From Candidatus Giovannonibacteria bacterium RIFCSPHIGHO2_01_FULL_45_24 (GTDB lineage: Bacteria; Patescibacteriota; Minisyncoccia; UBA11713; 2-01-FULL-45-33): a DNA stretch of 64,000 nt. How positions within the stretch are numbered: the stretch's first letter is position 1; every line of letters begins with the position of its first letter. The stretch is taken from the NCBI GenBank assembly GCA_001778495.1, contig MFHE01000002.1, positions 17,995 through 81,994 of the forward strand, read 5' to 3'. The position numbers were made by a program, and so were the translations under genes. A model generated the notes under the pieces. That model made no database searches. It was not told where the DNA came from and saw nothing but the letters and a program-made list of their open reading frames with translations. This document shows, in pieces, positions 37,604 to 56,285 of this stretch.

Positions 37604-38856
37604 CGAAAAAGGAAAAGAAAAAAAGTAAGCCGAAAAAATCGGCCCGCCTTGACTCCCGTCTAGACTTGACGAGGCTGACGGCGAGGCAGGCCAAGAGGAT
37701 TAAAGCGCTCGCAAAAAAGCCCAAACGCGCGCCGTCGGGGTTAAGCAAGGCGGAGCTGAAAAAAGAATTCAGCGAGGAAAGGGTTGAGGCGCTCTTTAAA
37801 AAAGGCAAAGAACGCGGTTTTTTGACTTACGCGGAGATTCTTTCGGCTTTCCCGCACGTTGAGTACAATGTGATTTTTTTGGAAGACCTTTATTCTCGGC
37901 TGGAGGTGGCTGGCGTGGACGTGCTTGAAGGGATGGAGCTTTTGGAAGTTCCCATAGAAAAAAAAGCGGAAGGAAAACCGGGGCGCAAGAAATCGCGCCA
38001 AAGCGTTTTGGCCACCGAAGACATCCCCGCCGCCGACTCTGTGCAGATGTATTTGAAAGAAATCGGGCGCATACCCTTGATTTCGGGCGAAGAGGAAAAA
38101 GAGCTCGCTAAAAAAATTGAAGCCGGCGAGGAGGACGCCAAGAACCAGCTGGCGCAGGCAAATCTGCGGCTGGTGGTTTCCATCGCCAAAAAATACGTTG
38201 GGCGGACGCCGAACCTCACCATGCTGGATTTGATTCAGGAGGGGAATCTGGGGCTTTTCAGAGCCGTGGAGAAATTTGACTGGCGGAAGGGCTATAAGTT
38301 CTCAACCTACGCCACCTGGTGGATAAGGCAGGCGGTTACCCGCGCGATTGCCGACCAAGGGAAAACCATCCGCATACCAGTGCACATGGTTGAAACTATC
38401 TCAAAATATCAGCAGGTGAGACGGCGCCTTACGCAGGATTTGGGCCGGGAGCCGCTGGCGGAGGAATTGGCGGCCGAGATGAATGTTGAGGTGGAAAAAA
38501 TTCACCATATCCAAAAAATTTCGCAGGACACGGTTTCTTTGGAGGCGCCGGTAGGGGAAGACGACGAGGATTCAACGCTTGGCGACTTTCTTCCGGACGA
38601 AAAAATGCTCACGCCAGCGCAGGAGGCGGCGCGGAAACTGCTTAAAGACCACCTTCGGGAAATTATGGTTGACCTTATGCCCCGGGAGCAGAAGATTTTG
38701 CGCATGCGCTTCGGCTTGGACGACGGCATCACCCACACCTTGGAGGAAGTCGGGAAAGAATTCGGCGTGACCCGCGAGCGAATCCGCCAGATTGAAGCGA
38801 AAGCGATAGAAAAAATCCGCCAGCACCACAAAGTCATAAAATTGCATGAGTATTAA
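37600..38856 (+). CDS. rpoD: RNA polymerase sigma factor RpoD/SigA
   Basis: Region 2 ([14 protein letters not shown]) and region 4.2 ([20 protein letters not shown]). Confidence 0.95.
37642..37692 (+). repeat. 51-bp imperfect-palindrome element, in frame in the rpoD N-terminus
   Basis: GCCCGCCTTGACTCCCGTCTAGACTTGACGAGGCTGACGGCGAGGCAGGCC. Encodes [17 protein letters not shown]. Confidence 0.95.
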
Positions 38857-40822: not shown

Positions 40823-42025
40823 ATGATTTTTGACCGGCAGCATTTCTATTTTTTCGGTAGCCGCGAGGTGACATCGCTCCATTTTACCCTTGCGCTGCTT
40901 TATTTCGCGGAGGGGCTTATCAGCGTGTTCGTGCCGATTTATTTTTGGAAGCTGGGGATACCGCTTTGGAAAATTTTGTTTTTTTATTTTTTAAACTCGC
41001 TTTATTTTTTGGTTCTGCTTTTCTTGTTTTTGCCGGCGCTTCGCAGATTAAGCGACAAAATGATGATGTTTCTTTCGCTGCCATTTTTGATACTTTATTA
41101 TTTCGGTTTGGGCTTTTTGGGCGATTTCCCGCGCATATTTTATGTCCTGCCCGCGGGGCTCGCGGCAAATATGCTGTTTTTTAACACCGGCTACCACGTT
41201 GATTTTTTGGGCGCTTCCGACAAAGGGCGTTTCGGCCAGGAGATGGGCCTCCGGCACATGCTGGCCTCTTTGGCGCAGTTTTCTTCGCCTTTTTTGGGCG
41301 CCGCGCTGATTGTTTCTTTCGGCTTCGCTTGGACTTTTTACGCCGGGTCGGCATTTTTGTTTTTAGCCGTTTTGCCGCTCTTTTTCTTCCCAAAGAGGAC
41401 GCTTTCGCCGAATCTCACCGCGAGCGCCGTGCTCGGATTTTTAAAAGAAAAAAAGCTCGTTCCGTTTACTTTGTCGGGAGTCGGGATGGCAACGGAAAAA
41501 ATGATCGGGCTTATTTTTTGGCCGCTTTTTATGTACTTCGCGTTCAGCGGCAGCATTGAGAATTTGGGCGGGGTTGTTTCTTTGGGAATTTTGGCGGGGT
41601 CGGTCGCGGCGTATCTTATAGGTTTTGTTTCTGACCACGGCAAAAGGCGGCGGATGCTTTTTTGGTCCGCGATAATATTCGCGGCAATTTGGGCAGACCG
41701 CCCGTTTTTGGAGTCCGCTTACCTTATCGCGGCGAGCAGCGTACTGGGGCACGCGGCTTATTCATCGCTCACGGTTGCCTGGTCCAGCCAGTACTACAAA
41801 ATCGCGGGAGCGGTTTCGGACGCCAGCGCTTTTATTTTGAGCCGCGAAGCGCTTTACCATATTGCCCGGGTGCCGTTTACGGCGGCGCTTGTTTTGGGGG
41901 CTTTTTACGTCCCGCAAGAAAAGCTTTTTGTTATCGGCTTTGTCGCGGCGGCGTGCGCGGCGCTATTTTTCCTTTTTGCCAATCGCATGCCGCACACCAA
42001 CCAGCTTTTTCATGGTGAAAGATAA
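40823..42025 (+). CDS. MFS-like transporter
   Basis: About 12 TM segments in two halves. TGcTATAAT lies 8 nt upstream of the ATG. Confidence 0.5.
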   Translation: MIFDRQHFYFFGSREVTSLHFTLALLYFAEGLISVFVPIYFWKLGIPLWKILFFYFLNSLYFLVLLFLFLPALRRLSDKMMMFLSLPFLILYYFGLGFLGDFPRIFYVLPAGLAANMLFFNTGYHVDFLGASDKGRFGQEMGLRHMLASLAQFSSPFLGAALIVSFGFAWTFYAGSAFLFLAVLPLFFFPKRTLSPNLTASAVLGFLKEKKLVPFTLSGVGMATEKMIGLIFWPLFMYFAFSGSIENLGGVVSLGILAGSVAAYLIGFVSDHGKRRRMLFWSAIIFAAIWADRPFLESAYLIAASSVLGHAAYSSLTVAWSSQYYKIAGAVSDASAFILSREALYHIARVPFTAALVLGAFYVPQEKLFVIGFVAAACAALFFLFANRMPHTNQLFHGER

Positions 42026-42728
42026 AAACGGGAGAATAGTTTTATCGCCGTCCGCCCTCAATCTTTTTTTGGAGTGCGCGAAATGCTTTTGGCTGGAAAA
42101 AAATCGCGGGATCCACCGGCCCTCGGGCGCCTTTCCGTCTTTGCCGGGGGGAATGGACGCTGTGCTCAAAAAATATTTTGACAAGTTTCGCGCGCAAGGC
42201 ACACTCCCGCCGGAGATTGAGGGAAAAGTAGAAGGTAAGCTTTTAGACGACCCGAGATTTTTGCGCGAGTGGCGGCTCAATATGAAAGGAATCAGATGGC
42301 GCGACGAAAAATTGGACGCGGAGCTGATGGGCGCTTTAGATGACTGCTTGGTTTCTAATAATTCTTACATCCCCGTTGATTATAAAACTAGAGGCTGGGC
42401 GGCGAAAGATGATTCACATTCTTATTATGTGAACCAATTAAATTGCTACACATTTTTGCTGCAAAAAAACGGATACAAAACTAAAAATTTCGCTTACTTG
42501 CTTTTTTATTCGCCTGAAGAGGTTTTGGACTTGGACGCCGGACGTCCAAGCGGACGTCCGGCGTCCTTAGTCGCATTCAACGTTGAGCCGCGCAAGGTTG
42601 AAGTGGAACCCGAAGCCGCCTACAAAGTTTTCAAATCTGCCGTCCAGCTTTTGCGCGGCCCCAAGCCCGCTTCGCACAGCGACTGCAAGTTTTGCAGCTG
42701 GGGAAACAATTTCTTGACTTTTGAATAA
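42012..42728 (+). CDS. PD-(D/E)XK (Cas4/RecB-like) nuclease family protein
   Basis: N-terminal SPSALNLFLECAKCFW, core IPVDYKT, C-terminal CKFCSW cysteines. The track start at 41862 is rejected because it overlaps the MFS gene. Confidence 0.65.
   Translation: MVKDKNGRIVLSPSALNLFLECAKCFWLEKNRGIHRPSGAFPSLPGGMDAVLKKYFDKFRAQGTLPPEIEGKVEGKLLDDPRFLREWRLNMKGIRWRDEKLDAELMGALDDCLVSNNSYIPVDYKTRGWAAKDDSHSYYVNQLNCYTFLLQKNGYKTKNFAYLLFYSPEEVLDLDAGRPSGRPASLVAFNVEPRKVEVEPEAAYKVFKSAVQLLRGPKPASHSDCKFCSWGNNFLTFE
42530..42566. repeat. REP-2-like double hairpin, in frame in the nuclease gene
   Basis: GGACGCCGGACGTCC-aagc-GGACGTCCGGCGTCC (15-bp arms). The first half reads CTTGGACG-ccgga-CGTCCAAG. Confidence 0.9.
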
Positions 42729-43364: not shown

Positions 43365-44507
43365 GTGGAAAAGGCAGACTATTTAATTTTAGGCGGCGGG
43401 ATTGCCGGGACCGCCGCCGCGGAAACTTTGCGCGAGGCTGACCAGCGCGCCAAGATAGTCATTTTGGAAGACGAGCCGCATGTTTTGTATTCGCGCGTTA
43501 TGATCCCTAAATACCTCAAGGGGCTTATCCCGCGCGAAAATCTTTTTTTGAGGAATATCGGCGACTACGAAAAGCGCGCTTTGGATTTTTATCCTTCTAC
43601 CAAGGCGGTAAAAATAGATTTCGCGCGCAGGGAAGTGCGCGCGGAGACCGGACTCGCCGTGTCTTATAAAAAACTTCTGATTGCATCCGGCGGGCGGCCT
43701 CGGCCCCCGCCGGAGCCGTTTTTGTCGGCCGCTGCGTCTGCAAAAATTTTGAGAATGCACACATTGGAAGACGCGGATTTGATAAAAAAAGAATTGGCAA
43801 GCGGTGCGCACCAAAGCGCACTGGTCGCCGGTGAGAGCTTCATCGCGCTTGAGTTTATAGAAATTCTAAGCTTGGCCGGCGTCGGCGTCCATATTGCGGC
43901 GAAGGGAGACGTTTGGGGCGAGGAAAGATTTGGAAAGGCGTGCGGCGAGCTTCTGGAGGAAAATTTTAAAAAGCACGGAATCGTAATTCACAAAAATACA
44001 GAGGACTTTCTTTTTAAAACCTCTCTGGTGTGCTTGGGAATAGGCCTTTCCAGCGGCTTGAATATTTTCCCTGGCCTTGAGGTCGGCAGTGGCGTGCTTA
44101 CGGATGAGTTTTTAAAAACTTCCGACAGCAATACTTTCGCGGCGGGAGACGTAGCGGAGTTTTTTGACGTTGTTTTGGGCAAGAAAAGAATCGTCGGCAA
44201 TTGGACGAACGCCTTTTTGCAGGGCAAAACCGCGGCTTTGAATATGGCGGGCGGCGGCAAGATTTTCCGGGCCGTGTCCGCTTACAACATATCCAATTTG
44301 GGCCTCCGGCTGACTGCTTTGGGCGACACGGCGGGTTTTGACGAAGAAAAAATAATTTCCGGCGAAAATAATTGCGCGCGGCTTCTCTTCGTAGCGGGCA
44401 GGTTGGTTGGCGCTACTTTAATCAACCGGTTTAATGATAAAATAATATTGTCGGAGCTTATAGAAAAAGGCGCGAACCGCGATGAAACGTCAAAAATATT
44501 TTCATAA
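43365..44507 (+). CDS. FAD-dependent pyridine nucleotide-disulfide oxidoreductase
   Basis: DYLILGGGIAGTAAA dinucleotide fold, a second GESFIALE fold, and AAGDVAE. Confidence 0.75.
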   Translation: MEKADYLILGGGIAGTAAAETLREADQRAKIVILEDEPHVLYSRVMIPKYLKGLIPRENLFLRNIGDYEKRALDFYPSTKAVKIDFARREVRAETGLAVSYKKLLIASGGRPRPPPEPFLSAAASAKILRMHTLEDADLIKKELASGAHQSALVAGESFIALEFIEILSLAGVGVHIAAKGDVWGEERFGKACGELLEENFKKHGIVIHKNTEDFLFKTSLVCLGIGLSSGLNIFPGLEVGSGVLTDEFLKTSDSNTFAAGDVAEFFDVVLGKKRIVGNWTNAFLQGKTAALNMAGGGKIFRAVSAYNISNLGLRLTALGDTAGFDEEKIISGENNCARLLFVAGRLVGATLINRFNDKIILSELIEKGANRDETSKIFS

Positions 44508-45648
44508 ACTGACATTCGGCCGCCACAACGCGACTTTCGCGGTGCTTGGGGTGGCGCTTGTGGCGACGGCATCGTGGTCTTTCGTGAAAACTTACGGGGC
44601 GGGAGACGGGGGCGCGTTTCAGACGACTCCGGCTGTCATTTCCGAACCCGAAAAGCCAAAACACATAAAAACCCCTGAACCGGTGAAGGCGATTTATATG
44701 ACCAGCTGGGTTGCCGGCACGAAAGATTGGCGTAGAGAACTGGTTGAGTTCGTTAAAAAATCCGAAATCAATAGCATTGTCATTGACGTAAAAGATTACA
44801 CTGGCAGAGTTTCTTTTAACACAGGGAATCAGAAAGTAAAAGAATTCGGTTCGGAGGAAATGCGCGTGGGAGACATGAAAGATTTTATTGAAACGCTACA
44901 CGACGCCGGCATCTACGCCATTGCCCGCATTGCCGTGTTTCAGGACCCGTTTTACGCAAAAAAACATCCGGAGATCGCCGTGCAGAAAAAAAATGGAGCG
45001 GTATGGAAAGACAAAAAGGGGCTTTCATATCTAGACCCGGGCGCGCGCGAATTTTGGGACTATATAATAGAAGTCGCCAAAGCGTCGGAGGCAGCCGGGT
45101 TTGACGAGCTGAATTTTGACTATATCCGCTATCCATCGGACGGCAATATGTCCGACATAATGTTTCCGGTATCAGGCAAAAGAAATAAAGTTGAAGTCAT
45201 GTCAGAATTTTTTGCCTATTTAAGTAATGCGCTAAGCGATCTGCCAGTCCCAATCTCTGCGGATGTTTTCGGAATGGTTGCCACCAATCCCGACGATTTG
45301 AACATCGGGCAGGTTTTGGAAAGCATCGCCCCGCATTTTGATTATGTTTCTCCAATGGTTTATCCGTCGCACTACCCGCCGGGATTTCAAAATTATAAAA
45401 ATCCCGCGGCGCATCCTTACGAGGTAGTGCGTTTTTCAATGAACAAGGCGGTGGAACGACTTTCAGCGCCGACTTCAACTCCTTCCAAACTCCGCCCTTG
45501 GATTCAGGATTTTGATTTGGGAGCAAATTACGATGCCTCGAAAGTCCGTGCGCAGATTCAGGCGGTTTACGACTCCGGCCTTACGTCTTGGATGAGCTGG
45601 GATGCCGGGAATAAATACACAAGGGATGCTTACACCTCTGATCCTTGA
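44482..45648 (+). CDS. putative glycoside-hydrolase-like TIM-barrel protein (DUF4015-like)
   Basis: N-terminal anchor, then VKAIYMTSWVAG...INSIVIDVKDYTG...DELNFDYIRYP pattern. Confidence 0.55.
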   Translation: MKRQKYFHKLTFGRHNATFAVLGVALVATASWSFVKTYGAGDGGAFQTTPAVISEPEKPKHIKTPEPVKAIYMTSWVAGTKDWRRELVEFVKKSEINSIVIDVKDYTGRVSFNTGNQKVKEFGSEEMRVGDMKDFIETLHDAGIYAIARIAVFQDPFYAKKHPEIAVQKKNGAVWKDKKGLSYLDPGAREFWDYIIEVAKASEAAGFDELNFDYIRYPSDGNMSDIMFPVSGKRNKVEVMSEFFAYLSNALSDLPVPISADVFGMVATNPDDLNIGQVLESIAPHFDYVSPMVYPSHYPPGFQNYKNPAAHPYEVVRFSMNKAVERLSAPTSTPSKLRPWIQDFDLGANYDASKVRAQIQAVYDSGLTSWMSWDAGNKYTRDAYTSDP

Positions 45649-46372
45649 CCCAAATCCGATTTAGGGCAATCATATAATAATCATAGCATTGATATATGCG
45701 AAAAAACCCTTTTATCACTGGCAGTTTTTATCATGTTTACGCGCACACAATAAGTGATTTAGCGCTTTTTCGTAACGAGTGGGACTATAAAAGATTTTTA
45801 TGCACGTTTTTCGCTGCTAATGGAGATGGCGCTGTTCTTCGTTTGGATCGCCAGAATGACCTAAATCCGATTTGGGGCATACGGGATGGGACAGTAGATA
45901 TCGGAAAGCCGCTTGTAGATATAGTTTGTTTTTGTCTCATGAACACCCATTTCCACTTGCTTTTGGGAGAGCGTGGAGATGGAAATATTTCTAAATTTAT
46001 GCAAAAGCTTATGATCAGCTATGCCAAATATCTAAATCTAAAGTACGAACGCCGAGGGCACGTGTTTGAAAGCAGATTTCATTCCAAGCTTTTGGATGAT
46101 AATGAATATTTTTTGCGGGCTTCGTGCTATATTCACTTGAATCCAAAAGATGCACGCGGATGGAAAAATATTGAGTATAAATATCCTTGGTCAAGCTACC
46201 AAGACTACCTCGGCGATTCTCGCTGGGGCAGACTTTTGAAAGACGAGACTATACTTTCACAATTTAAAACCAAACTGGCGTATAGGGAATTTGTGAGAGA
46301 AGCGCGCCCGGAATTATCCGATTATGCAGAGCATGTTGTTTTTCTAAACTGACCCAAATCGGATTTGGGGCA
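45646..46372 (+). mobile_element. RAYT-1 unit: Y1/HUH transposase gene bracketed by 23-nt REP-1 hairpin copies
   Basis: TGACCCAAATC(C/G)GATTT(A/G)GGGCA at 45646-45668 and 46350-46372. A third copy lies at 45857-45879 inside the ORF. Confidence 0.75.
45696..46352 (+). CDS. REP-associated tyrosine transposase-like protein (IS200/Y1_Tnp family)
   Basis: FYHVY..., HUH motif in CLMNTHFHLLL, C-terminal Tyr motif ASCYIHLNP. Confidence 0.8.
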   Translation: MRKNPFITGSFYHVYAHTISDLALFRNEWDYKRFLCTFFAANGDGAVLRLDRQNDLNPIWGIRDGTVDIGKPLVDIVCFCLMNTHFHLLLGERGDGNISKFMQKLMISYAKYLNLKYERRGHVFESRFHSKLLDDNEYFLRASCYIHLNPKDARGWKNIEYKYPWSSYQDYLGDSRWGRLLKDETILSQFKTKLAYREFVREARPELSDYAEHVVFLN

Positions 46373-47508: not shown

Positions 47509-47563
47509 CATTGTGAATATCAATGGATTGCCTCATTTTTCAAAGTCTTTTAAAATTAAGTTA

Positions 47564-49915
47564 ATGAAGTTTTTAGCCAAGCCGCTTTTAGCTTTTGCTT
47601 TTCTCTTTCTTTTTGCCGCGCCCGCCTTTGCCGGCCCCAACGATAATCTCTCCGGCGGGGCATGGGCCGATAATATCGGCGCGATCAGTTTTAATTCCAC
47701 AAATCATGATGGCGACGTAGATTACGGCGTTAGCGTTGATCAAGCTGGAAATCTCTCCGGAGAAGCATGGTCCGACAATGCAGGATGGATAAGTTTTAAC
47801 GCAGGGGACGTTGCGGGGTGTCCGCAGGACCCGCCGGCGGTTCCGTGCGCGCCGAAATTGAATCGCGAAACGGGAGTTGTTTCCGGTTGGGCAAGGGCTT
47901 ATCGCGCCATAGAGCCGGAAGGTCAGACACTCGGCGGCTGGGATGGATGGATTCATCTTAGGGGAAAGGTCCAAAGCGATAATTCAGATTTTGGTGTTTT
48001 GGCAAGCGGCTGTGATTGGGGCGGGCTTGCCTGGGGCGGCACTGATTATAGTCTGGGTTTTACCGGCTGGGTTCAATTTGACGCCGAAGGCACCGGCTTT
48101 GCCTGCGTTGAAGTTGTTCAACCCGGACTGCGCGTCGTTCCACATTCCGCCGATCTTGAAGTCGGAGGGCAAATGCCTTTCCAAGCTCTTTACGACCCGG
48201 ATGGTTCCAGCCCACAGCCGGAAACAGACGTTACTGAATCGGCTTCCTGGTCTTCTTCAGGCCCCGCAGTAGCCGTCGTAACAAATATTTCTCCCAAGGG
48301 CATAGTAACGGGTGTATCGCCCGGGGATGCCAATATCACCGCGACTTATCTCGGAACAAACGACTCGGCTTTGGTTAATGTTACTCAATCACCGCCATCT
48401 GTTCCCAAATGCGAACCAACTTCTCAATCAGGGAAAGTCGGCGATCCATTCGGTTTCACCGCCAAGGACGGCTCATCTCCATACAGCTGGTCCGCTCCTT
48501 CGGGGACTCCATCTTCCGGCGCGGGATCTTCTTTCATCACAAGATACTCTTCCCCCGGCAACTACGTTGTTACTCTCACTGACTCCGCAAGTAGGTCCGA
48601 CACTTGCTCCGTGAGCGCAGAGAGGGTTGAGGACCCTGAAAACCGCGTTCCGGTTGCCGAAGCCGGCATTTCAACGGACGGCTCAACTTACTCAAGCAAA
48701 ATCATTGTTACAAAAGGGGTCCCGACCAGAATTTACTTTTCTGCCGATGAAGATGTAACCGGAGATGGAGCCGCGAGCCGCGACCCGGACGGCTGGACTC
48801 ACCCGACTCTGGGAGTTTCCAACGGAGGAAGTTGCGCGTGGAACGCCGACCTCAATCAAGGAACTCCGACTTTTGAAAAAACTTTTGGCAGTCCGCCATC
48901 GCCGTCCGGCTGCAATTTCAATCAAGAATACACTTTTAACGATGACCTTGAGGGGCAGCAATCCAAAACCTTCACTTACGAGGTGCTTAAAATCACAGAC
49001 GCAAGAGGGGCGGTTTCAAACATAGGATTCGTGCAAGTGGAGGTGAGAGCCGAGGGCGGATTTACCTGCAACTCATTGAAGCAGTGCGTCTTTGGCGGCG
49101 GGGGAGAAAGTTGTAGGATTACTCCGGAGTGCGAAAGCGTTATTGTAGACCCGCCTGTCTGCACAAGCAACTGCGGAGGAGGCGGAGGAGGCGGAGGAGG
49201 CTGCACTGATCCGGTAACATGCCCTGTTGTTACAGATCCCAACGCTTTAGAGCTTGGCTCCGACACCAGTTTTTTCTGCCCGTCTCATCAGGTTGAACTT
49301 AAATGGAATTACTCCGATCCAAACGGCGACCAGCAAGCGTCTTTTAGATTACAGGTTGATAACAATTCAGATTTTTCATCAATGATTGTTGACGTTTACC
49401 AAGACTCTTCAAATAAACTTTTTATTGTCCCGCCGAATGTGCTTTCTTTCAGCACAACGTATTATTTCAGAGTCGCGGTAAAAGATTCAACCGGCGCGTG
49501 GTCAAACTGGTCTTCTTCCGCCAATTTCACGACGCCGGCAAGTTGTCCTCCGGCGGCGAGCTTTAAACTCCGCAGAACGAAAGACATCTCTGTGAATGTC
49601 ACTGGCGTAGGCGCTGGAACAAGCGATTCAACGACGATTTGGGTTGAGAAGATCGGAGCGTTTTCCGGCACGGTAATACTCGTTCCGCAATCCATCTCGC
49701 CGAATATTCCCGGCGCGTCTTTCAGTTTCGCAACCGCTTCGCTGGATCAAGATCATTATTCGTCCGGTTTTAGCTTCAAGGTCACGGTTCCGGGGTCTAC
49801 CGCGCCTGGCAATTACACTATTAAAATTAAAGGGACGAGCGGCGGCGTGCCGGACGCTTTTGTTGACGTCCTGCTTAGAGTAAATTTTACCAGCCCGGAT
49901 TTTAGGGAAATATAA
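47564..49915 (+). CDS. large secreted multi-domain surface protein (module 1, gene c)
   Basis: Signal peptide MKFLAKPLLAFAFLFLFAAPAFA. Repeated G.AW...GWISFN motifs, a Big_2-like segment and many Cys pairs. The C-terminal domain is shared with 52021-53265. Confidence 0.75.
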   Translation: MKFLAKPLLAFAFLFLFAAPAFAGPNDNLSGGAWADNIGAISFNSTNHDGDVDYGVSVDQAGNLSGEAWSDNAGWISFNAGDVAGCPQDPPAVPCAPKLNRETGVVSGWARAYRAIEPEGQTLGGWDGWIHLRGKVQSDNSDFGVLASGCDWGGLAWGGTDYSLGFTGWVQFDAEGTGFACVEVVQPGLRVVPHSADLEVGGQMPFQALYDPDGSSPQPETDVTESASWSSSGPAVAVVTNISPKGIVTGVSPGDANITATYLGTNDSALVNVTQSPPSVPKCEPTSQSGKVGDPFGFTAKDGSSPYSWSAPSGTPSSGAGSSFITRYSSPGNYVVTLTDSASRSDTCSVSAERVEDPENRVPVAEAGISTDGSTYSSKIIVTKGVPTRIYFSADEDVTGDGAASRDPDGWTHPTLGVSNGGSCAWNADLNQGTPTFEKTFGSPPSPSGCNFNQEYTFNDDLEGQQSKTFTYEVLKITDARGAVSNIGFVQVEVRAEGGFTCNSLKQCVFGGGGESCRITPECESVIVDPPVCTSNCGGGGGGGGGCTDPVTCPVVTDPNALELGSDTSFFCPSHQVELKWNYSDPNGDQQASFRLQVDNNSDFSSMIVDVYQDSSNKLFIVPPNVLSFSTTYYFRVAVKDSTGAWSNWSSSANFTTPASCPPAASFKLRRTKDISVNVTGVGAGTSDSTTIWVEKIGAFSGTVILVPQSISPNIPGASFSFATASLDQDHYSSGFSFKVTVPGSTAPGNYTIKIKGTSGGVPDAFVDVLLRVNFTSPDFREI
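49175..49201 (+). repeat. tandem (GGAGGAGGC)x3 encoding Gly9 between two Cys codons
   Basis: A perfect 9-nt unit repeated three times, in frame. Confidence 0.9.
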
Positions 49916-49925
49916 TAAAATTGGG

Positions 49926-50261
49926 ATGGAAGAGCAATTTTCAAAAACAATAAGAACGACCACCCTGATTTTAATCGCGGCTTTGGCCATTGCGGCAATT
50001 TATTATTATTGGACTCAATTGTCCGGAATTGAACCCGCAAAAGAAGAAAGGCCGTTTTATGTGCCCGCGCCAACTAACGCCCCGCCATTGCCGGAAACGA
50101 AAGAGTTTATCCCGGAGCCCACTAAAGCCCCGCCTCTTCCAGCAAGCAAGGCGCCGGAGCCGACTAATGCACCCACTCTTGAAGAATTAGGAACACCACC
50201 ATCTTCCACACCGCTTCCGGAGGGCTCCGCTCCTCCTCCCACCGGCGCACCTGCTTTATAA
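49926..50261 (+). CDS. small single-pass membrane protein with Pro-rich repeated tail (module 2, gene a)
   Basis: TM segment [17 protein letters not shown], then (A/E)PT(N/K)APPLP repeats. The stop overlaps the next start (TAATG). Confidence 0.55.
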
Positions 50262-51937
50262 TGAATCTTATGAAGAACCAAACTAACAATTTATTAAAAG
50301 ATGTGGCTAAAGTGGCGGTTTTCGGAGTTGCGTTTTTGGTGTTGCAGGCGCTTGCGTTTACAGAGCCCTCGCAATCTCCTCCCTGGGGCAATACTCCTGC
50401 TCCGTTAAATGTTTCCGGCTCAACGCAAGCTAAAAGCGGAGAGCTTCAGATTCCAATTCTCCGCGACTACAACAATCCCGGCTATTACGTTGACCCCGAT
50501 GCCAATTCGTGGCTCTACCGGCTTTATTCTTTTGAATTAAGATCGGAGGATAAAATCTGTTTTAAAGGGGACTGCAGGACATCATGGCCCTCCAGCGGTA
50601 CCGACAGCCAAACCCTTTCCATCAGTGGGCAAACTCTTTCTATTTCCGGCGGAAATAGCGTCGCTTTGCCGGCGGGGGGAGATATTACCGCGGTTAATGC
50701 GGGAGCTGGTCTTTCTGGGGGAGGAGCTTCCGGCGATGTCGCGCTTTTCGCAGACACCGGCTATCTGCAAAGAAGAATAAGTGACACGTGCGGCGCCGGT
50801 TCGTCCATTCGGGCAATAAATTCTGACGGCTCTGTTGTTTGCGAAGCGGATGACGCCGGTACTGGAGGTATTGGAGCAGAATCCGACACTTTACAAAGCG
50901 TAACCGACCGCGGCAATTCAACCTCTCAAAATTTGACCTCTCCGATAGTCTATGACTACAACAATGCTGGCTACTACGTTGACCCCGCAGCCAACTCGTG
51001 GCTTTACAGATTATATTCTTACGAACTTTGTCTTCGCAACGATTGCGTCACTTCTTGGCCTCCCGGTCCGCCGGGACCGCAAGGTCCGGCAGGCCCGACT
51101 GGACCCACTGGCGCAACCGGAGCAACGGGAGCTGCCGGACCACAGGGCCTCAAAGGGGATACTGGAGCAGCTGGTTCAAAAGGCGACACAGGGGCGACTG
51201 GCACGACGGGCCTCCAAGGTCCGCAAGGTCCTGCAGGACCAGCTGGCGACATTACGGGTTCAAATCCCAACTGGTTGCGCGCTCTTTGGCTGGAGGCGAC
51301 CAATTATCTTAAGGCTCCGATTCTTTACGATCGCGACAATGAGGGATATTATGTTGATCCCGCTTCCAACTCAATATTTTTTAGGTTATATTCCTATGAT
51401 TTAAAGTCGCTAGACCGGATTTGCCTTCGCGGCGATTGCCGCACCTCGTGGCCATCCGGCGGCGGCTCTGACAGCCAGACGCTTTCCATAAGCGGTCACA
51501 CTTTATCTATTTTCGGCGGCAACAGCGTCTCATTACCCGATAATGACAGCCAGACTTTATCTCTAAGCGGCCAGACGCTTTCCATCTCCGGCGGCAACAG
51601 CGTTAGTTTGCCATCCGGCGGCGGCTCTGACAGTCAGACGCTTTCTTTTAATCCAGATACCTATAATCTTAATATTTCTGGCGGAAACAGCGTGACATTG
51701 CCCGGGCAAAAAGTTTGCATCGGTTATCATACCGAAGGAGATAATTGGCACGACATTTTGCAAGTGCCGACTGGCTGGACGATATCAACATGCCGCAACG
51801 GGTTAAAAACATTCAGTAGTTCCATAAAGAAGTTTATGTTGGGGTGCATTTTTACAAATTCCTTCTCAAAATCGCCGGGCGACTTTGTGGGCATTAACAA
51901 TAATCCAAGTTTGCCTTCACCAAATTGCGGCTGGTAA
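50261..51937 (+). CDS. secreted collagen-like fibre protein (module 2, gene b)
   Basis: Signal ...LQALA|FTEPS and [20 protein letters not shown]. 20 G-X-Y triplets (about 51065-51247). Repeated [14 protein letters not shown] and [19 protein letters not shown] units. Confidence 0.8.
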
Positions 51938-51956
51938 ATTATTAATCCTTAGGAAG

Positions 51957-51977
51957 TTAGGAAGTCCGACTTCCTAA
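51957..51977. repeat. intergenic REP-like hairpin
   Basis: TTAGGAAGT-CCG-ACTTCCTAA, preceded by a partial duplication of the left arm. Confidence 0.8.
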
Positions 51978-52020
51978 TGATTTTGCTTGCTTGATAGATT
52001 GAATTTGATAGAATTAAAAT

Positions 52021-53265
52021 ATGGTTAAAAATTTCAGAGTTGGCGCGGTTTTGGCGACTTTGGTTTTCGGGGCGGCTTTTTATTTTCTTCCGACTTTTCA
52101 CTCTCCAGAAGTCCAAGCGGGCTCCGAGCATAATCTTTCCGGGTGGGCGTGGTCGGAAAATATCGGCTGGATAAGTTTTAACTCAACCAATCAGGGTGGT
52201 GGGGCGAACTACGGCGTGACGGTTGACAGTGGCGGCAATCTTTCCGGCTACGCCTGGTCGGAAAACATCGGCTGGATTGATTTTAATGAGAATACCGGAT
52301 GCCCATCTTCTCCCTGCCGGCCGAAACTGAACCGTTCCAGCGGGCAAGTTTCCGGATGGGTTAAGGCCTTGGCGGCGGGCGGCAGCGGTTGGGACGGCTG
52401 GATTCGCCTTCGTGGATCTAATTACGGAGTTGGTGTTAACGGCTGTGACTGGGATGGGTATGCTTGGGGGTCTGATGTTGTGGGATGGATTCATTTTAAG
52501 GGATCAAATTACGGCGTTTCGGGAACTGGATCCGGCTGCGGCGTTCAGCCCGATTTGCTCGTTTCAAGCGGCCCGCTGCTTAATTTCGGCGTTTTGGTCG
52601 GAGGGACGACGGTCAATTTCAAGGGCACCGTGCGCAATCAGGGCGACGCAGAAGCCGTAGGCGCTTTTTCTAATCGCTTTCAGGTTGACATTGATAATAA
52701 CGGCTCGGTTGATTTAACGCTTACTCCAAATCCAACATTGAGCGGCCTCGCCGCCGGAAGATTTTCTGAAGTGGTTTCCGGAAACTGGAGCAATATCCCC
52801 GTCGGCACGCACCGCGTTGTTCTTTGCGCCGACCAGCCCGGCCCGACTATTGCCGAATCCAACGAAAATAACAACTGCTCGGAAAGCTTATTCACCGTCT
52901 CCGTGCCGGAGTTTTACCTATTAAGCTCAAACGAGCTTGATATTGATGTCACCGGCGTGGGAGATTCTTCAAGCGGCACTACCAAAATAACCGTGATTCC
53001 GGTCGGAGCTTTTACCGATGACGTCGCATTGTCTGTACAGTCCGTTTCGCCGTCTTTGCCTGCTGGGACAATTTATAATTTCGTGCCGCAAACCCTGAAG
53101 AAAAATCAGTATTCTTCCGGTTCAAATTTTAAAGTGACGGTTCCCGGAGACACCGCGGAGGACGAGTATATTATTACCATTGTAGGCCAAAGCCCTGGAC
53201 TCAACCGGACAATCAATGTTACACTTCATGTTAATTTAAAGATTCCGGAATTTAAAGAAATTTAA
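52021..53265 (+). CDS. secreted surface protein, paralogue of 47564-49915 (module 2, gene c)
   Basis: Same N-terminal GWAWSENIGWISFN repeat domain and same C-terminal domain, ending PEFKEI versus PDFREI. Confidence 0.75.
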   Translation: MVKNFRVGAVLATLVFGAAFYFLPTFHSPEVQAGSEHNLSGWAWSENIGWISFNSTNQGGGANYGVTVDSGGNLSGYAWSENIGWIDFNENTGCPSSPCRPKLNRSSGQVSGWVKALAAGGSGWDGWIRLRGSNYGVGVNGCDWDGYAWGSDVVGWIHFKGSNYGVSGTGSGCGVQPDLLVSSGPLLNFGVLVGGTTVNFKGTVRNQGDAEAVGAFSNRFQVDIDNNGSVDLTLTPNPTLSGLAAGRFSEVVSGNWSNIPVGTHRVVLCADQPGPTIAESNENNNCSESLFTVSVPEFYLLSSNELDIDVTGVGDSSSGTTKITVIPVGAFTDDVALSVQSVSPSLPAGTIYNFVPQTLKKNQYSSGSNFKVTVPGDTAEDEYIITIVGQSPGLNRTINVTLHVNLKIPEFKEI

Positions 53266-53266
53266 C

Positions 53267-53950
53267 ATGGATCAAAAATTTTTAATTCCGTCTTCTATTA
53301 TTTTGGCTGGTGTAGTAATTGCCTTGGCGGTTTTGTATAGCAAAATCCCGTCCGCGCCCTCCTCAACATCCGATGTTAAATCTGCAAAAACATCGGATGT
53401 TTTCCCGGGCGCGGAAGCTCTACGTATCCGCCGAGACGATTTTGTTTTGGGAAGTCCCGCCGCGAAAGTCGCCATTATTGAATATGGAGATTTTCAGTGC
53501 CCGTTTTGCGGAAGATTTTTTCAAACTACCGAAAAGGAGATTATAGAAAAGTACGTGAAGACCGGCAAAGCCGCGTTTTTGTGGCGCGACTTCGCGTTTT
53601 TGGGAGAAGAGTCTTTCCGCGCCGCCGAGGCGGCGCGTTGCGCCGGAGAGCAGGGGAAGTTTTGGGAATATCACGACTATCTTTTTAATGGTCAGCGGGG
53701 GGAAAATGAGGGCGCGTTTTCCGACCAAAATTTGAAACGTTTCGCGAAAGAGCTGAAACTGGACGAATCTAAATTTAATTCCTGTTTTGATTCCGGAAAA
53801 TACAGAAAAGCGGTTGAGGAAACGTCAAATACGGGGAGAGCGGTTGGGGTGAACGGCACCCCGGCCACTTTCGTAAACGGGCAGTTAATTTCCGGAGCGC
53901 AGCCGTTTGCCGTGTTTCAGAAAATTATAGATGAAGAGCTCAAAAAATAA
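53267..53950 (+). CDS. DsbA-family thiol:disulfide oxidoreductase (membrane-anchored)
   Basis: Thioredoxin-fold CPFC active site and an N-terminal TM segment. Confidence 0.85.
   Translation: MDQKFLIPSSIILAGVVIALAVLYSKIPSAPSSTSDVKSAKTSDVFPGAEALRIRRDDFVLGSPAAKVAIIEYGDFQCPFCGRFFQTTEKEIIEKYVKTGKAAFLWRDFAFLGEESFRAAEAARCAGEQGKFWEYHDYLFNGQRGENEGAFSDQNLKRFAKELKLDESKFNSCFDSGKYRKAVEETSNTGRAVGVNGTPATFVNGQLISGAQPFAVFQKIIDEELKK
53360..53407 (+). repeat. 48-bp double-hairpin element, copy B, in frame in the DsbA-like gene
   Basis: 46/48 identical to 1371-1418. Encodes SSTSDVKSAKTSDVFP. Confidence 0.9.
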
Positions 53951-55416: not shown

Positions 55417-55420
55417 TTCC

Positions 55421-56128
55421 CACTTGGCTGTCCGACAGCCAAGTGTTATATTTTATTTATGAGAAAAACTCGTTTTGGTAACGGAGAATTTTATCATATT
55501 TATAATCGCGGTACCGATAAGCGTCGGGTATTTTTAGACCAAGAAGATTTTAAGCGTTTTTTGCAGAGCATGAACGAATTTAACAGCCAAATACCTATCG
55601 GCAGTTTATTTGAGAACTCTTTTAGGGGCGAAACTAAACTTGGCAGTCGGACTGTTAAGTTGGTTGATATCGTTTGCTATTGTCTTAATCCTAACCACTA
55701 TCATTTAATGCTTCGTCAGCGCATTGAAAATGGAGTTAGTGAGTTTATGAAACGATTGAGTGGTGGTTATACTCAATATTTCAATATTAAATATAAAAGA
55801 AGCGGCGTGCTTTTTCAAGGTAAATTTAAGGCGACGCACATAGATTCTAATGAATATCTTTTACATGCCAGCGCATATGTTAATTTGAATAACCGCGTTC
55901 ATCATATTAATGACAGATCATCACGATCAAGTTGGGGAGAATGTCTCGATGACAATAGCGGTATGTGCGCTAAAGATATTATATTGAAGCAATTTAAGAA
56001 GCCCGTCGAGTATAAAGAATTTGCTGAAAGTTCGCTAAGAGATATTTTAGAGCGGAAACAACTGCATAAAGAACTGGAAAAAATATTACTAGAAAATTAG
56101 CCACTTAGCTGTCGGACAGCTAAGTGGC
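55421..56128 (+). mobile_element. RAYT-2 unit: Y1/HUH transposase gene bracketed by REP-2 hairpins
   Basis: CACTTGGCTGT-CCG-ACAGCCAAGTG (55421-55445) and CCACTTAGCTGT-CGG-ACAGCTAAGTGG (56101-56127). Internal copy at 55638-55660. Confidence 0.8.
55459..56100 (+). CDS. REP-associated tyrosine transposase-like protein (IS200/Y1_Tnp family)
   Basis: FYHIYNRG..., HUH motif in CLNPNHYHLML, Tyr motif ASAYVNLN. TGtTATATT ends 7 nt before the ATG. Confidence 0.8.
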   Translation: MRKTRFGNGEFYHIYNRGTDKRRVFLDQEDFKRFLQSMNEFNSQIPIGSLFENSFRGETKLGSRTVKLVDIVCYCLNPNHYHLMLRQRIENGVSEFMKRLSGGYTQYFNIKYKRSGVLFQGKFKATHIDSNEYLLHASAYVNLNNRVHHINDRSSRSSWGECLDDNSGMCAKDIILKQFKKPVEYKEFAESSLRDILERKQLHKELEKILLEN

Positions 56129-56285
56129 ATGTGGTCACGAAAAATGCCCCCTATGCTGCAGGATGACCTCCTGATGCTCTAGAAGTGTTAATTGGACTTT
56201 TTAGTAAACTTTATTATGATATAAATATGTAGGTGTGGCAATTTCTTTATACATCAAGAGTTTTATTGGTAAAATGTAATTACAT

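What the first reader, a model, noticed from the sequence alone, without database searches (positions are those of the whole stretch)
45646..46372. RAYT-like HUH transposase gene bracketed by its own REP hairpin, with a third copy inside the ORF (family REP-1)
ORF 45696-46352 has Y1/HUH transposase hallmarks: FYHVY near the N-terminus, H-F-H in CLMNTHFHLLL, and the Tyr motif CYIHLNP. It is bracketed by two copies of a 23-mer, TGACCCAAATCCGATTTAGGGCA (45646-45668) and TGACCCAAATCGGATTTGGGGCA (46350-46372). Each copy folds as CCCAAAT-CSG-ATTTGGG, and the central triplet is flipped (CCG versus CGG), so the hairpin cores are inverted relative to each other. Each copy begins with the TGA stop of the gene before it, so the stop codon plus hairpin appears to have been duplicated on insertion. 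A third copy, TGACCTAAATCCGATTTGGGGCA (45857-45879), lies in frame inside the transposase ORF (NDLNPIWGI), upstream of the HUH motif. This is the RAYT/REP arrangement known from proteobacteria, here in what looks like a CPR genome, and I am not aware of it being described there.
Basis: partly seen in the sequence, partly recalled or inferred. Interest (0 to 1): 0.8.

Follow-up and report, generated by a model that had tools for sequence, protein, structure and literature searches.

The report
Hairpin-flanked RAYT-like transposase in Giovannonibacteria
A small single-strand-DNA nuclease gene of an ultra-small (CPR) bacterium carries three copies of its own target-like DNA hairpin, one before it, one at its end and one kept inside its coding sequence, extending the known REP/RAYT repeat system to this phylum in an unusual form.

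Summary
Three copies of a 23-nt palindrome lie at 45646, 45857 and 46350, where chance predicts none. The ORF at 45696-46352 is an intact Y1/HUH protein. Its predicted fold is closest to E. coli RAYT bound to a REP hairpin.

The organism is Candidatus Giovannonibacteria. A second paralogue (55459-56100, 34% identical) has the same three-hairpin layout with a different stem.

All 12 close relatives examined carry 5', internal and 3' copies at fixed spacing. At least 34 of 80 distant relatives have matching flanking hairpins with locus-specific stems.

The internal copy is not a recent insertion:
- Its stem codons are frozen (CTA, AAC, GTT, GAC) while other synonymous sites are scrambled.
- Its loop co-varies with the flanking loops.
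- In an orthologous pair, all three copies changed together.

Solo copies with the genome-specific loop occur elsewhere in relatives, including at the site that lacks the gene in the nearest genome. TGA belongs to the repeat, so the two stop codons are not a target duplication.

Verdict: a REPtron-like RAYT/REP system, atypical in having no GTAG tag, low copy number and often intragenic copies. The conserved in-frame copy is its unusual feature. In-frame REPs inside RAYT genes are already known elsewhere.

The parts
44482..45648 (+). Upstream neighbour, a DUF4015 putative glycoside hydrolase. Its TGA stop (45646-45648) is the first three bases of the 5' hairpin copy.
   Evidence: Pfam DUF4015, 349.6 bits. 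It is 89% identical to the Ca. Giovannonibacteria CP066687 orthologue. In CP066687 and in L092 the orthologue ends inside a solo hairpin of the same family.
45646..45668 (.). 5' copy of the palindromic repeat, TGACCCAAATCCGATTTAGGGCA (stem CCCAAAT/ATTTAGG, loop CCG).
   Evidence: dG -3.8. The stem carries one C.A mismatch, which is the reverse-complement signature of the internal copy's T.G wobble.
45645..45678 (+). Promoter-like elements overlapping the 5' hairpin: TTGACC (45645-45650, in the left arm), and TATAAT (45673-45678) 17 nt before the ATG.
   Evidence: The promoter scan reports TTGACC, a 17-nt spacer and AATCAT. TATAAT was read directly and gives a 22-nt spacer. This is inference only. 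The T2 element has TTGGCT, a 17-nt spacer and TATATT in the same position.
45696..46352 (+). T1, a 218-aa class-2 Y1/HUH (RAYT-like) gene.
   Evidence: Pfam Y1_Tnp 25.6 bits against a cut-off of 23. NCBIfam REP_Tyr_transpos 38.2 bits, below the cut-off of 80. H85, H87 and Y145 are invariant in 83 homologues. AlphaFold2 pLDDT 94.4. The best PDB fold match is 4ER8, E. coli RAYT with REP.
45857..45879 (.). Internal in-frame copy, TGACCTAAATCCGATTTGGGGCA, encoding N54-I62. This peptide is part of helix 57-64, which lies between helix 28-40 and the HUH strand.
   Evidence: The stem codons are frozen across 12 orthologues. The position is conserved, 164-170 nt after the ATG, in 12 of 12 close relatives.
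45948..45956 (+). HUH motif codons (H85-F86-H87).
   Evidence: Translation. Invariant columns in the alignments.
46128..46130 (+). Putative catalytic Tyr145, in YIHLNP (the class-2 'Y---NP' signature).
   Evidence: Invariant Y145 and N149. The signature is defined in PMC6006769.
46350..46372 (.). 3' copy, TGACCCAAATCGGATTTGGGGCA (loop CGG, flipped). Its first three bases are the T1 stop codon.
   Evidence: dG -9.2, z -5.5.
55420..56128 (+). Second element of the same design (T2). 5' hairpin CCACTTGGCTGTCCGACAGCCAAGTG at 55420-55445; gene at 55459-56100 (213 aa, 34% identical to T1); internal in-frame copy ACTTGGCAGTCGGACTGTTAAGT at 55638-55660 (peptide KLGSRTVKL); 3' hairpin at 56100-56128.
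   Evidence: (Y1_Tnp 32.3 bits). In the orthologue in CP066687 all three copies have changed together.

Best explanation
The locus is a REPtron-like module of Candidatus Giovannonibacteria. It is a RAYT-class (TnpAY1 class 2) single-strand-DNA nuclease/transposase gene together with three copies of its cognate palindromic hairpin:
- one overlaps the stop of the upstream gene and the gene's own probable promoter;
- one is kept in frame inside the coding sequence;
- one overlaps the gene's own stop codon.

By analogy with E. coli TnpAREP and IS608/ISDra2 TnpA, the enzyme would recognise the hairpin when DNA is single-stranded and cut and rejoin DNA beside it (inferred, not shown here). This would copy or exchange hairpins. 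It would explain the genome-specific solo copies at gene ends and inside genes, and why all copies in a genome share the same loop.

The gene-plus-hairpins unit is inherited mostly vertically as a single copy. It is occasionally lost, leaving a solo hairpin, or relocated.

The internal copy is an old part of the gene that is constrained at the nucleic-acid level. Its stem is kept by selection or by continual copying, and its loop tracks the flanking copies.

Shown: the anatomy, the fold, the conservation, the co-variation and the solo copies. Inferred: cleavage and strand transfer at the hairpins, a regulatory or template role for the internal copy, and the promoter overlap.
For: Protein:
- Pfam Y1_Tnp above its cut-off.
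- H85, H87, Y145 and N149 invariant in 83 homologues.
- The class-2 signature YIHLNP.
- AlphaFold2 pLDDT 94.4. Best PDB match is 4ER8, RAYT with REP, at E 1.2e-5 and TM 0.64, ahead of the IS200/IS605 transposases.

Generality:
- 2326 homologues, where named almost all from Patescibacteria.
- A paralogue in the window has the same design with a different stem.
- At least 34 of 80 distant loci have matching up/down hairpins with locus-specific stems.
- 11 of 80 also have an internal copy matching 16-19 of 19 positions, always at aa 51-71.
- The strongest intragenic hairpins pile up 60-90 nt before the HUH codons: 12 of 44 fall in one 30-nt bin.
- All 12 close relatives have all three copies at fixed spacing.

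Nucleic-acid constraint:
- Stem codons are frozen: L56 CTA in 12/12, N57 AAC in 11/12, V59 GTT in 11/11, D61 GAC in 10/10.
- Other conserved Leu columns use 3-6 different codons, and AAT and GAT are the preferred codons elsewhere.
- The loop codon varies (CTG, CTT, TTA).

Co-variation:
- 5' and 3' flank loops fall in the same class in 12/12 loci (expected 3.5).
- The internal loop matches the flank class in 9/12 (expected 3.4, permutation p about 0.0015).

Concerted change: between the window and CP066687, all three T2 copies switched inner stem from TGT/ACA to AAC/GTT, while neighbouring genes are 81-94% identical.

Dispersal:
- Solo T1-type copies carry the genome's own loop in L084 (3 copies), L089 and L092, against a chance rate of 0.05 per 100 kb.
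- T2-type copies lie in frame in dnaG, uvrC and a PDDEXK gene.

Inheritance:
- T2 is syntenic in CP066687 at 72.6% identity.
- P0003, P0004 and P0009 all lie after secDF.
- T1 itself is at one fixed site in 23 contigs.
Against: - No GT[AG]G guide tetranucleotide lies next to the hairpins.
- No extra T1-type copy exists in the 64-kb window, and solo copies in relatives are few (about 2-3 per 100 kb).
- The NCBIfam RAYT equivalog scores 38 bits against a cut-off of 80.
- The sequence motifs (NHFH / FE-FQ / YIHLNP, SS tail) best fit TnpAY1 subclass 2.1, for which Quentin et al. found no REPs.
- The fixed 31-nt spacing of the 5' hairpin and the presence/absence differences between close genomes resemble the ends of an insertion sequence.
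- No biochemical or expression data exist.
- The co-variation statistics ignore phylogenetic non-independence.
Confidence: 0.75

Rival explanations
1. It is an autonomous IS200/IS605-type insertion sequence. The two outer hairpins are its left and right ends, and the whole 727-bp unit transposes by single-strand 'peel and paste'. The solo hairpins would be excision or deletion scars.
For: - The unit length is close to that of IS200, with hairpins at both ends at fixed distances from the gene in 12 relatives.
- T1 is present in the window but absent at the same site in CP066687, where the neighbouring gene is 89% identical.
- A third Y1 unit in CP066687 is precisely absent from the window.
- T1-type units sit in many different gene contexts.
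- The trxB-gap site holds T2 in the window and a T1-type gene in the opposite orientation in L085.
Against: - The Tyr motif is Y---NP (class 2), not the IS200 signature Y---Q, and the protein is 218 aa rather than about 150.
- The fold is closer to RAYT than to IS608 or ISDra2 TnpA.
- There are no near-identical copies: the two paralogues in the window are 34% identical.
- The exact T1 protein occurs in a single context in 23 contigs.
- Synteny is kept across genomes.
- Hairpins with the same loop occur alone, including in frame inside genes.
- The two ends are often in inverted rather than direct orientation.
Confidence: 0.15
2. The internal copy is a recent, neutral in-frame REP insertion into a tolerant loop of the transposase. 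This is how TnpAY1 subclass 2.4 and other REP-decorated proteins have been interpreted.
For: - In-frame REPs in RAYT genes and in other genes are documented.
- Family members with an internal hairpin have a slightly longer segment between the N-terminal YH motif and HUH (median 73 against 67.5 aa).
- This genome tolerates in-frame hairpins in dnaG, uvrC, PDDEXK, DsbA and a TPR protein.
Against: - The peptide DLN(L/P)(V/I)W(D/G) and its DNA stem are conserved in all 12 relatives at 50-65% protein identity, using non-preferred codons.
- The segment is modelled as a confident helix (pLDDT above 90), not a disordered loop.
- Internal copies occur at the same place in very distant members with unrelated stems.
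Confidence: 0.04
3. The hairpins are ordinary transcription terminators or mRNA-stabilising stem-loops with no functional tie to the HUH protein, and the similarity between copies is incidental.
For: Two copies sit exactly at gene ends. A solo copy ends the DUF4015 gene in genomes that lack T1 at that site. REPs elsewhere are known to act as RNA elements.
Against: - No T-tract follows the stems, and the terminator scan does not call them.
- There is no Rfam match.
- One copy lies inside the ORF.
- Stems differ from locus to locus but match within a locus in dozens of relatives.
- Loops co-vary.
- The solo copy in L092 shares its loop with the RAYT-like gene 1.7 kb away.
Confidence: 0.03

Closest known systems
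REPtron: TnpAREP/RAYT flanked by REP/BIME (E. coli yafM, Pseudomonas; Nunvar 2010 PMC2817692; Messing 2012 PMC3479197)
   Same: - A single-copy Y1/HUH gene with the Y---NP Tyr motif.
- Flanked on both sides by its own genome-specific palindromes, often inverted.
- The repeats also occur alone elsewhere.
- Mostly vertical inheritance.
- The best structural match is 4ER8.
   Different: - No 5' GT[AG]G tag.
- Near-perfect palindromes with a 3-nt loop rather than bulged imperfect ones.
- Very low copy number.
- Copies sit on stop codons or in frame in genes rather than in intergenic space.
- Fixed spacing to the gene.
- A conserved internal copy.
- 14% sequence identity to 4ER8, and a sub-threshold NCBIfam score.
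TnpAY1 subclass 2.4 (Cyanobacteria/Bacteroidetes) with REPs inserted in frame inside tnpAREP (Quentin et al. 2018, PMC6006769)
   Same: The cognate palindrome is found inside the transposase gene without breaking the reading frame, in addition to the flanking copies.
   Different: [quoted passage not shown]
- Here the copy lies 23-33 codons upstream of HUH and encodes a conserved helix.
- Its stem codons are frozen, and it co-varies with the flanks.
- The protein motifs also differ: NH[IFV]H / WQ / YIxNNP against NHFH / FE / YIHLNP.
TnpAY1 subclass 2.1 / TIRYT-TIRtron (Di Nocera 2013 PMC3733652; Quentin 2018)
   Same: - The best motif match (NH[YF]H, FQ, Y[IV]HLNP).
- Length of about 220-240 aa, with a C-terminal tail carrying the 'SS' motif (WSSY here).
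- TIRtrons are flanked by inverted repeats, some self-complementary, that form moderately abundant families.
- The right arm TTGGGTCAG / TGGGACAA loosely resembles the TIR consensus GGGGWSAS.
   Different: - Quentin et al. found no REP-like structures for subclass 2.1.
- No DnaA_C/HTH-like C-terminal domain is detected by Pfam here.
- The GGGGWSAS match is imperfect.
- Assignment to this subclass was not tested by phylogeny.
IS200/IS605 insertion sequences (IS200, IS608, ISDra2)
   Same: The Y1/HUH fold, subterminal hairpins at both ends of a roughly 0.7-kb unit, and a presumed single-strand mechanism.
   Different: - The Tyr motif is Y---Q.
- The transposase is about 150 aa.
- Copies within a genome are many and near-identical.
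- The two hairpins are in direct orientation.
- No dispersed solo hairpins.
- No internal copy.
Intragenic palindromic repeats: Rickettsia RPEs and intragenic GTAG/CGTC REPs (Di Nocera 2013; Ogata et al. 2000 from my own knowledge)
   Same: - Short palindromes are carried in frame inside housekeeping genes.
- They are notably found in replication and repair genes (here dnaG, uvrC and a PDDEXK nuclease).
- Repeat ends supply stop codons.
   Different: - Different sequence families and a different host phylum.
- Here the same site in orthologous genes holds different inner stems in related genomes.

Membership tests
Y1/HUH transposase superfamily (Pfam PF01797, TnpAY1) | HUH metal-binding motif and a single catalytic Tyr in the IS200-like fold | tested here: met
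   Y1_Tnp 25.6 bits (cut-off 23) for T1 and 32.3 bits for T2. H85, H87 and Y145 are invariant in 83 sequences. The AF2 model has pLDDT 94.4, and its top PDB hits are all Y1 transposases.
RAYT / TnpAREP (TnpAY1 class 2) | Tyr motif Y-x-x-x-N-P (IS200 has Y-x-x-x-Q) | tested here: met
   YIHLNP in T1, with Y145 and N149 invariant in the family. The criterion comes from PMC6006769. T2 has YVNLNN.
RAYT / TnpAREP (TnpAY1 class 2) | Score above the NCBIfam equivalog NF047646 cut-off | tested here: not met
   38.2 bits against a cut-off of 80. The match covers residues 74-165 only.
RAYT / TnpAREP (TnpAY1 class 2) | Gene flanked on both sides by its cognate palindromic repeat (REPtron), typically inverted | tested here: met
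   Shown for T1 and T2, for 12 of 12 close relatives, and for at least 34 of 80 distant relatives. Flank loops are the same or reverse complements.
RAYT / TnpAREP (TnpAY1 class 2) | Low copy number, divergent paralogues, vertical inheritance | tested here: met
   T1 and T2 are 34% identical. The T2 orthologue is syntenic at 72.6% identity. T1 occurs in one context in 23 contigs. The secDF-linked orthologues are found in 3 genomes. Presence/absence differences also exist.
REP (repetitive extragenic palindrome) | Many dispersed copies in the genome, away from the RAYT gene | tested here: inconclusive
   The T1 family has 0 extra copies in the 64-kb window. Relatives carry solo copies with the genome-specific loop: L084 has 3, L089 has 1 and L092 has 1. 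The T2 family has about 5 extra copies in the window, all intragenic. The whole genome was not available.
REP (repetitive extragenic palindrome) | Conserved 5' GT[AG]G tetranucleotide at the foot of an imperfect (bulged) hairpin | tested here: not met
   No GTAG or GTGG lies beside any copy. The stems are near-perfect with 3-nt loops. Subclasses 2.6 and 3 also lack it.
IS200/IS605 insertion sequence | Y---Q Tyr motif, a transposase of about 150 aa, and multiple near-identical copies per genome | tested here: not met
   The Tyr motif is YIHLNP and the protein is 218 aa. The window holds only two copies, 34% identical, and T1 has a single context across assemblies.
IS200/IS605 insertion sequence | Subterminal hairpins at both ends of the unit | tested here: met
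   Hairpins at 45646-45668 and 46350-46372, with fixed spacing in relatives.
TnpAY1 subclass 2.1 / TIRYT | Motifs NH[YF]H, FQ and Y[IV]HLNP, an SS tail, and a C-terminal HTH (DnaA_C-like) domain | tested here: inconclusive
   The family consensus is PNHFH, HVFES (FQ in T2), YIHLNP and WSSY. Pfam detects no HTH domain. No phylogeny with reference members was made.

The most novel reading that the evidence does not exclude
The in-frame hairpin may be the protected master copy and cis-acting site of the system. Because it is embedded in a selected helix of the enzyme, the repeat cannot decay. The flanking and dispersed hairpins would then be copied from it, in either orientation, by the enzyme acting in cis on its own gene. 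This would resemble the replication origins that lie inside the rep genes of pT181 or phiX174.

Three observations fit this reading:
1. The loops seen anywhere in the family are almost only Leu codons or their reverse complements (CTG/CAG, CTT/AAG, TTA/TAA). The exceptions are CCG/CGG (Pro) in this window's T1 and a CAG (Gln) internal loop in L084.
2. 7 of 12 5' flanks, and a solo copy, carry the T (or its complement A) that only the internal copy needs, for its CTA Leu codon, although this weakens their stems.
3. Flank loops follow synonymous changes of the internal loop codon.

If true, this would be a self-templating REP/RAYT system with an overlapping protein and DNA-structure code.
Probability: 0.2. 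Interest if true: 0.8.

Novelty: new variant of a known kind. Interest (0 to 1): 0.55.

Why it matters
- It places a REP/RAYT-type system in the Candidate Phyla Radiation. These bacteria have tiny, gene-dense genomes that are usually thought to carry few mobile elements. The family behind it has more than 2000 members.
- With almost no intergenic space available, the palindromes survive on stop codons and in frame inside proteins, including DnaG, UvrC and the transposase itself. They therefore shape protein sequences.
- The internal copy is a clean natural example of one stretch of DNA serving two roles. It codes for a protein helix and forms a DNA or RNA hairpin. The evidence is frozen synonymous sites and co-variation with non-coding copies.
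- Each gene displays its presumed cognate hairpin next to it. The family is therefore a ready catalogue of small HUH enzymes paired with candidate DNA targets, which is of interest for orthogonal protein-ssDNA tagging.
- For annotation, these hairpins should not be read as plain terminators, and the genes should not be called IS200.

Tried and rejected
- The metagenome scan with the T1 protein returned only one locus, L081, so close relatives had to be fetched one at a time by exact-protein look-ups.
- A profile search of PDB sequences gave only weak ISDra2 hits (E 0.05). The link to RAYT needed a predicted structure and Foldseek.
- Rfam found nothing relevant in the locus or in the whole window: one chance sub-threshold hit and three tRNAs.
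- The terminator scan did not call any of the hairpins.
- My automatic flank-hairpin detector (at least 7 pairs, at most 1 mismatch) misses imperfect stems, including T1's own. Its counts are therefore lower bounds.
- I considered that the encoded peptide itself reads the hairpin, so that protein and target would change together. This does not fit the loop changes CTG/CTT/TTA, which are synonymous yet still tracked by the flanks.
- Target-site duplication of 'TGA plus hairpin' is rejected, because TGA is part of every copy in every relative.
- Assembly artefact is rejected, because three independent assemblies are identical.
- Orientation cannot be assigned cleanly for T1. The loop centre and the stem mismatch give conflicting orientations for the 5' copy.
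Full report
**1.

The three 23-mers are at 45646-45668, 45857-45879 and 46350-46372. A search allowing 3 mismatches finds only these sites in 64 kb, where shuffles give none.

ORF 45696-46352 (218 aa, called T1 here) carries FYHVY, the HUH motif (H85, H87) and CYIHLNP (Y145). It hits Pfam Y1_Tnp at 25.6 bits, just above the cut-off of 23.

The 5' copy starts with the TGA stop of the DUF4015 gene (44482-45648). The 3' copy starts with T1's own TGA. The internal copy is in frame and encodes N54-I62.

As single-stranded DNA all three fold as a stem with a CSG triloop, at -3.8, -5.2 and -9.2 kcal/mol. The unit is base-identical in three other public assemblies and always lies in the same context.

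**2. Organism and setting.**

The neighbouring genes are 81-94% identical to those of Candidatus Giovannonibacteria CP066687.1 (651 kb) and appear in the same order. The CPR assignment is therefore correct.

T1 has 2326 homologues at E <= 1e-3. Those that carry a name are almost all from Patescibacteria MAGs. JGI labels one of them 'REP element-mobilizing transposase RayT'.

**3. A second element in the window has the same design.**

Palindromes centred on TCSGA are over-represented in the window: 15 with at least 6 pairs, against 0.55 expected.

One family brackets a second Y1 gene, T2 (55459-56100, 213 aa). T2 is 34% identical to T1 and scores 32.3 bits against Y1_Tnp. Its copies are:
- 5' copy: CCACTTGGCTGTCCGACAGCCAAGTG
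- 3' copy: GCCACTTAGCTGTCGGACAGCTAAGTGGC
- internal in-frame copy: ACTTGGCAGTCGGACTGTTAAGT, which encodes KLGSRTVKL and ends three bases into the codons of the HUH strand.

The stem is completely different from T1's, but the architecture is the same.

**4. The design is general in the family.**

In 80 loci from GTDB species genomes, most genes have a palindrome just upstream and just downstream. At least 34 of the 80 pairs match each other by a strict automatic test, and the stems differ from locus to locus.

In 11 of the 80, the ORF also holds a copy matching its own flank at 16-19 of 19 positions, where shuffles reach at most 15. These copies always lie at residues 51-71.

The strongest intragenic hairpins cluster 60-90 nt before the HUH codons, with 12 of 44 in a single 30-nt bin.

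Among close relatives of T1 (50-65% identity, 12 loci including the window), every one has all three copies:
- the 5' copy starts 31-32 nt before the ATG in 10 of 12 loci (41 nt in L096 and 47 nt in the window itself);
- the internal copy is 164-170 nt inside the gene;
- the 3' copy lies on or just inside the end of the ORF.

**5. The internal copy is old and constrained as nucleic acid.**

The peptide DLN(L/P)(V/I)W(D/G) is conserved. AlphaFold2 models it with confidence as a short helix (57-64) between helix 28-40 and the HUH strand, with overall pLDDT 94.4.

In a codon alignment of the 12 genes:
- The stem codons are frozen: L56 is CTA in 12/12, N57 is AAC in 11/12, V59 is GTT in 11/11 and D61 is GAC in 10/10.
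- Other conserved Leu columns use 3-6 codons, and elsewhere Asn prefers AAT and Asp prefers GAT.
- The loop codon is free (CTG in 2, CTT in 4, TTA in 4).

Synonymous sites are therefore randomised everywhere except in the stem.

**6. The copies evolve together.**

The loop classes of the 5' and 3' flanks agree in 12/12 loci (expected 3.5). The internal loop agrees with them, either directly or as its reverse complement, in 9/12 (expected 3.4, permutation p about 0.0015, not corrected for phylogeny).

The cleanest case is T2. In the syntenic orthologue in CP066687 (72.6% identical), all three copies read GGCAAC-CSR-GTTGCC, where the window has GGCTGT-CSG-ACAGCC. The encoded peptide changes from KLGSRTVKL to KLGNRVAKL.

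Because CTG, CTT and TTA are synonymous, the matching operates on DNA or RNA, not through the protein.

**7. The hairpins also occur alone.**

In CP066687 the DUF4015 gene is followed directly by the next gene. T1 is absent there, but one hairpin, CTTGACCGAAACTAAGTTTCGGACAA, overlaps the stop codon, and TAA is its loop.

L092 has a similar solo copy at the same gene end. Its TAA loop is the one used by that genome's T1-type gene 1.7 kb away. L084 has three solo copies with its own AAG/CTT loop. Chance gives 0.05 such hits per 100 kb.

A more distant genome, L094, again has a T1-type gene right after DUF4015. The likeliest history at this site is an old residence with losses that leave one hairpin.

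T2-type palindromes lie in frame in dnaG, uvrC (twice) and a PDDEXK gene. In the PDDEXK and DsbA orthologues of CP066687, the same site holds a palindrome with a different inner stem.

**8. Classification.**

The Tyr motif Y---NP places the protein in TnpAY1 class 2 (RAYT-like), not with IS200, which has Y---Q.

The best structural match is 4ER8, E. coli RAYT bound to a REP (E 1.2e-5, TM 0.64 normalised to the target). ISDra2 and IS608 TnpA follow.

The NCBIfam RAYT equivalog is matched only at 38 bits against a cut-off of 80.

The motifs NHFH / FE-FQ / YIHLNP and the WSSY tail best resemble subclass 2.1 (TIRYT). Quentin et al. report that subclass as lacking REPs. Subclass 2.4 is the one with in-frame REPs inside the gene, but those lie between HuH and Y. 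Intragenic REPs, their enrichment in replication and repair genes, and REP ends that supply stop codons are all described by Di Nocera et al..

I found no paper linking REP/RAYT to CPR.

**9.

TGA is part of the conserved left arm ((C)TTGACC, or ATGACC internally) in every copy of every relative. Relatives place their stops in the stem, in the loop or after the hairpin. The shared TGA is therefore a co-opted stop, not a duplication made on insertion.

The flipped loop centre is a genuine orientation mark, as the reverse-complement loops in relatives show. For T1 itself, however, the stem mismatch and the loop give conflicting orientations for the 5' copy.

**10. Mechanism.**

Shown: a RAYT-fold gene, three co-evolving hairpins, low-copy solo hairpins that share the genome's loop, mostly vertical single-copy inheritance, and occasional gain or loss.

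Inferred from E. coli TnpAREP and IS608 (PMC3479197): the enzyme binds the extruded hairpin in single-stranded DNA and cuts and rejoins beside it, which spreads or exchanges hairpins.

The 5' hairpin overlaps promoter-like hexamers: TTGACC in its left arm, and TATAAT 17 nt before the ATG. T2 has TTGGCT, a 17-nt spacer and TATATT. Binding there could feed back on expression, but this is inference only.

For the internal copy, the data favour a maintained cis element, whether a regulatory handle or a template, over a neutral insertion. Its role is untested.

An IS200-like reading of the whole unit remains a minority alternative. It is supported by the fixed geometry and the presence/absence polymorphisms. 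It is opposed by the class-2 motif, the single-copy state, the synteny and the solo hairpins.

**11. Verdict.**

This is a real and well-supported REPtron-like system in a CPR bacterium. The overall kind is known. It is unusual in having no GTAG tag, in its low copy number, and in its largely intragenic or stop-overlapping copies. Its most distinctive feature is a conserved, position-fixed, in-frame copy of the repeat with frozen stem codons that co-varies with the flanks.

Noticed in passing
window 55420-56128: A second RAYT-like gene (T2, 55459-56100) has its own hairpin family at both ends and an in-frame internal copy (55638-55660). In the orthologue in CP066687 (L089 17588-18288) all three copies changed together.
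   Followed up: yes
window 36303-36350: An inverted doublet, ACTTAGCAATCGGATTGCTAAGT-ca-ACTTAGCAATCCGATTGCTAAGT, lies in frame in the DnaG primase (aa 120-136), in the linker between the zinc ribbon and the catalytic core. Its outer stem is that of the T2 family.
   Followed up: partly
window 25224-25245 and 26144-26166: Two palindromes, ACTTGGCGGTT(T/A)AACCGCCAAG, lie in frame inside UvrC (aa 357-364 and 50-58). They share the T2-type outer stem but have a TTWAA centre.
   Followed up: partly
window about 42550-42605, inside the PDDEXK gene (42012-42728); L089 8065-8100: An in-frame palindrome doublet (CTTGGACGCCGGACGTCCAAG C GGACGTCCGGCGTCC) sits inside a PDDEXK nuclease gene. The 83%-identical orthologue in CP066687 has a doublet at the same site with a different inner stem (ACTTGGCGGCTAAGCCGCCAAGT GGCGGTTTCACCGCC).
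   Followed up: partly
window 1370-1418 and 53359-53407: A 49-nt doublet of CAACATCCGATGTT / AACATCGGATGTT hairpins, 96% identical between the two sites, lies in frame just after the N-terminal membrane helix of two unrelated proteins, a TPR protein and a DsbA-like protein. It encodes SSTSDVxSxKTSDVFP. DsbA orthologues in L089 and L091 carry other palindromic sequences at the same linker.
   Followed up: partly
window 51950-51977: An intergenic palindrome, TTAGGAAGTCCGACTTCCTAA, is preceded by a direct repeat of its left arm (TTAGGAAG). It is another TCSGA-centred family with no transposase gene nearby.
   Followed up: no
window 22663-22713 and 37642-37692: A 51-nt inverted repeat, 98% complementary and 14.9 kb apart, encodes the same peptide ARLDSRLD(S/L)TRLTARQA in two unrelated ORFs on opposite strands (254 aa and 418 aa). 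It is not a tRNA and has no Rfam match.
   Followed up: partly
L089 6700-7480 (CP066687.1): A third Y1 gene (226 aa, minus strand) has its own hairpin, TAACGACATCGCAAGTCGTTA, at both ends and an internal copy at about aa 48-55. It is precisely absent from the window, where the two neighbouring genes abut at 42012-42025.
   Followed up: partly
L085 9842-10690, compared with window 55416-56286: The trxB-gap intergenic site holds T2 in the window and in CP066687. In another Giovannonibacteria genome it holds a T1-type gene in the opposite orientation. This suggests either a preferred landing site or a replacement.
   Followed up: partly
window 47513-53265: A run of large secreted or surface proteins carries internal repeats. 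These include collagen-like GGNCCN nonamer repeats (51065-51246) and 50-85-nt repeat families shared between ORFs (47645-47799 and 52132-52286; 50452-51400).
   Followed up: no
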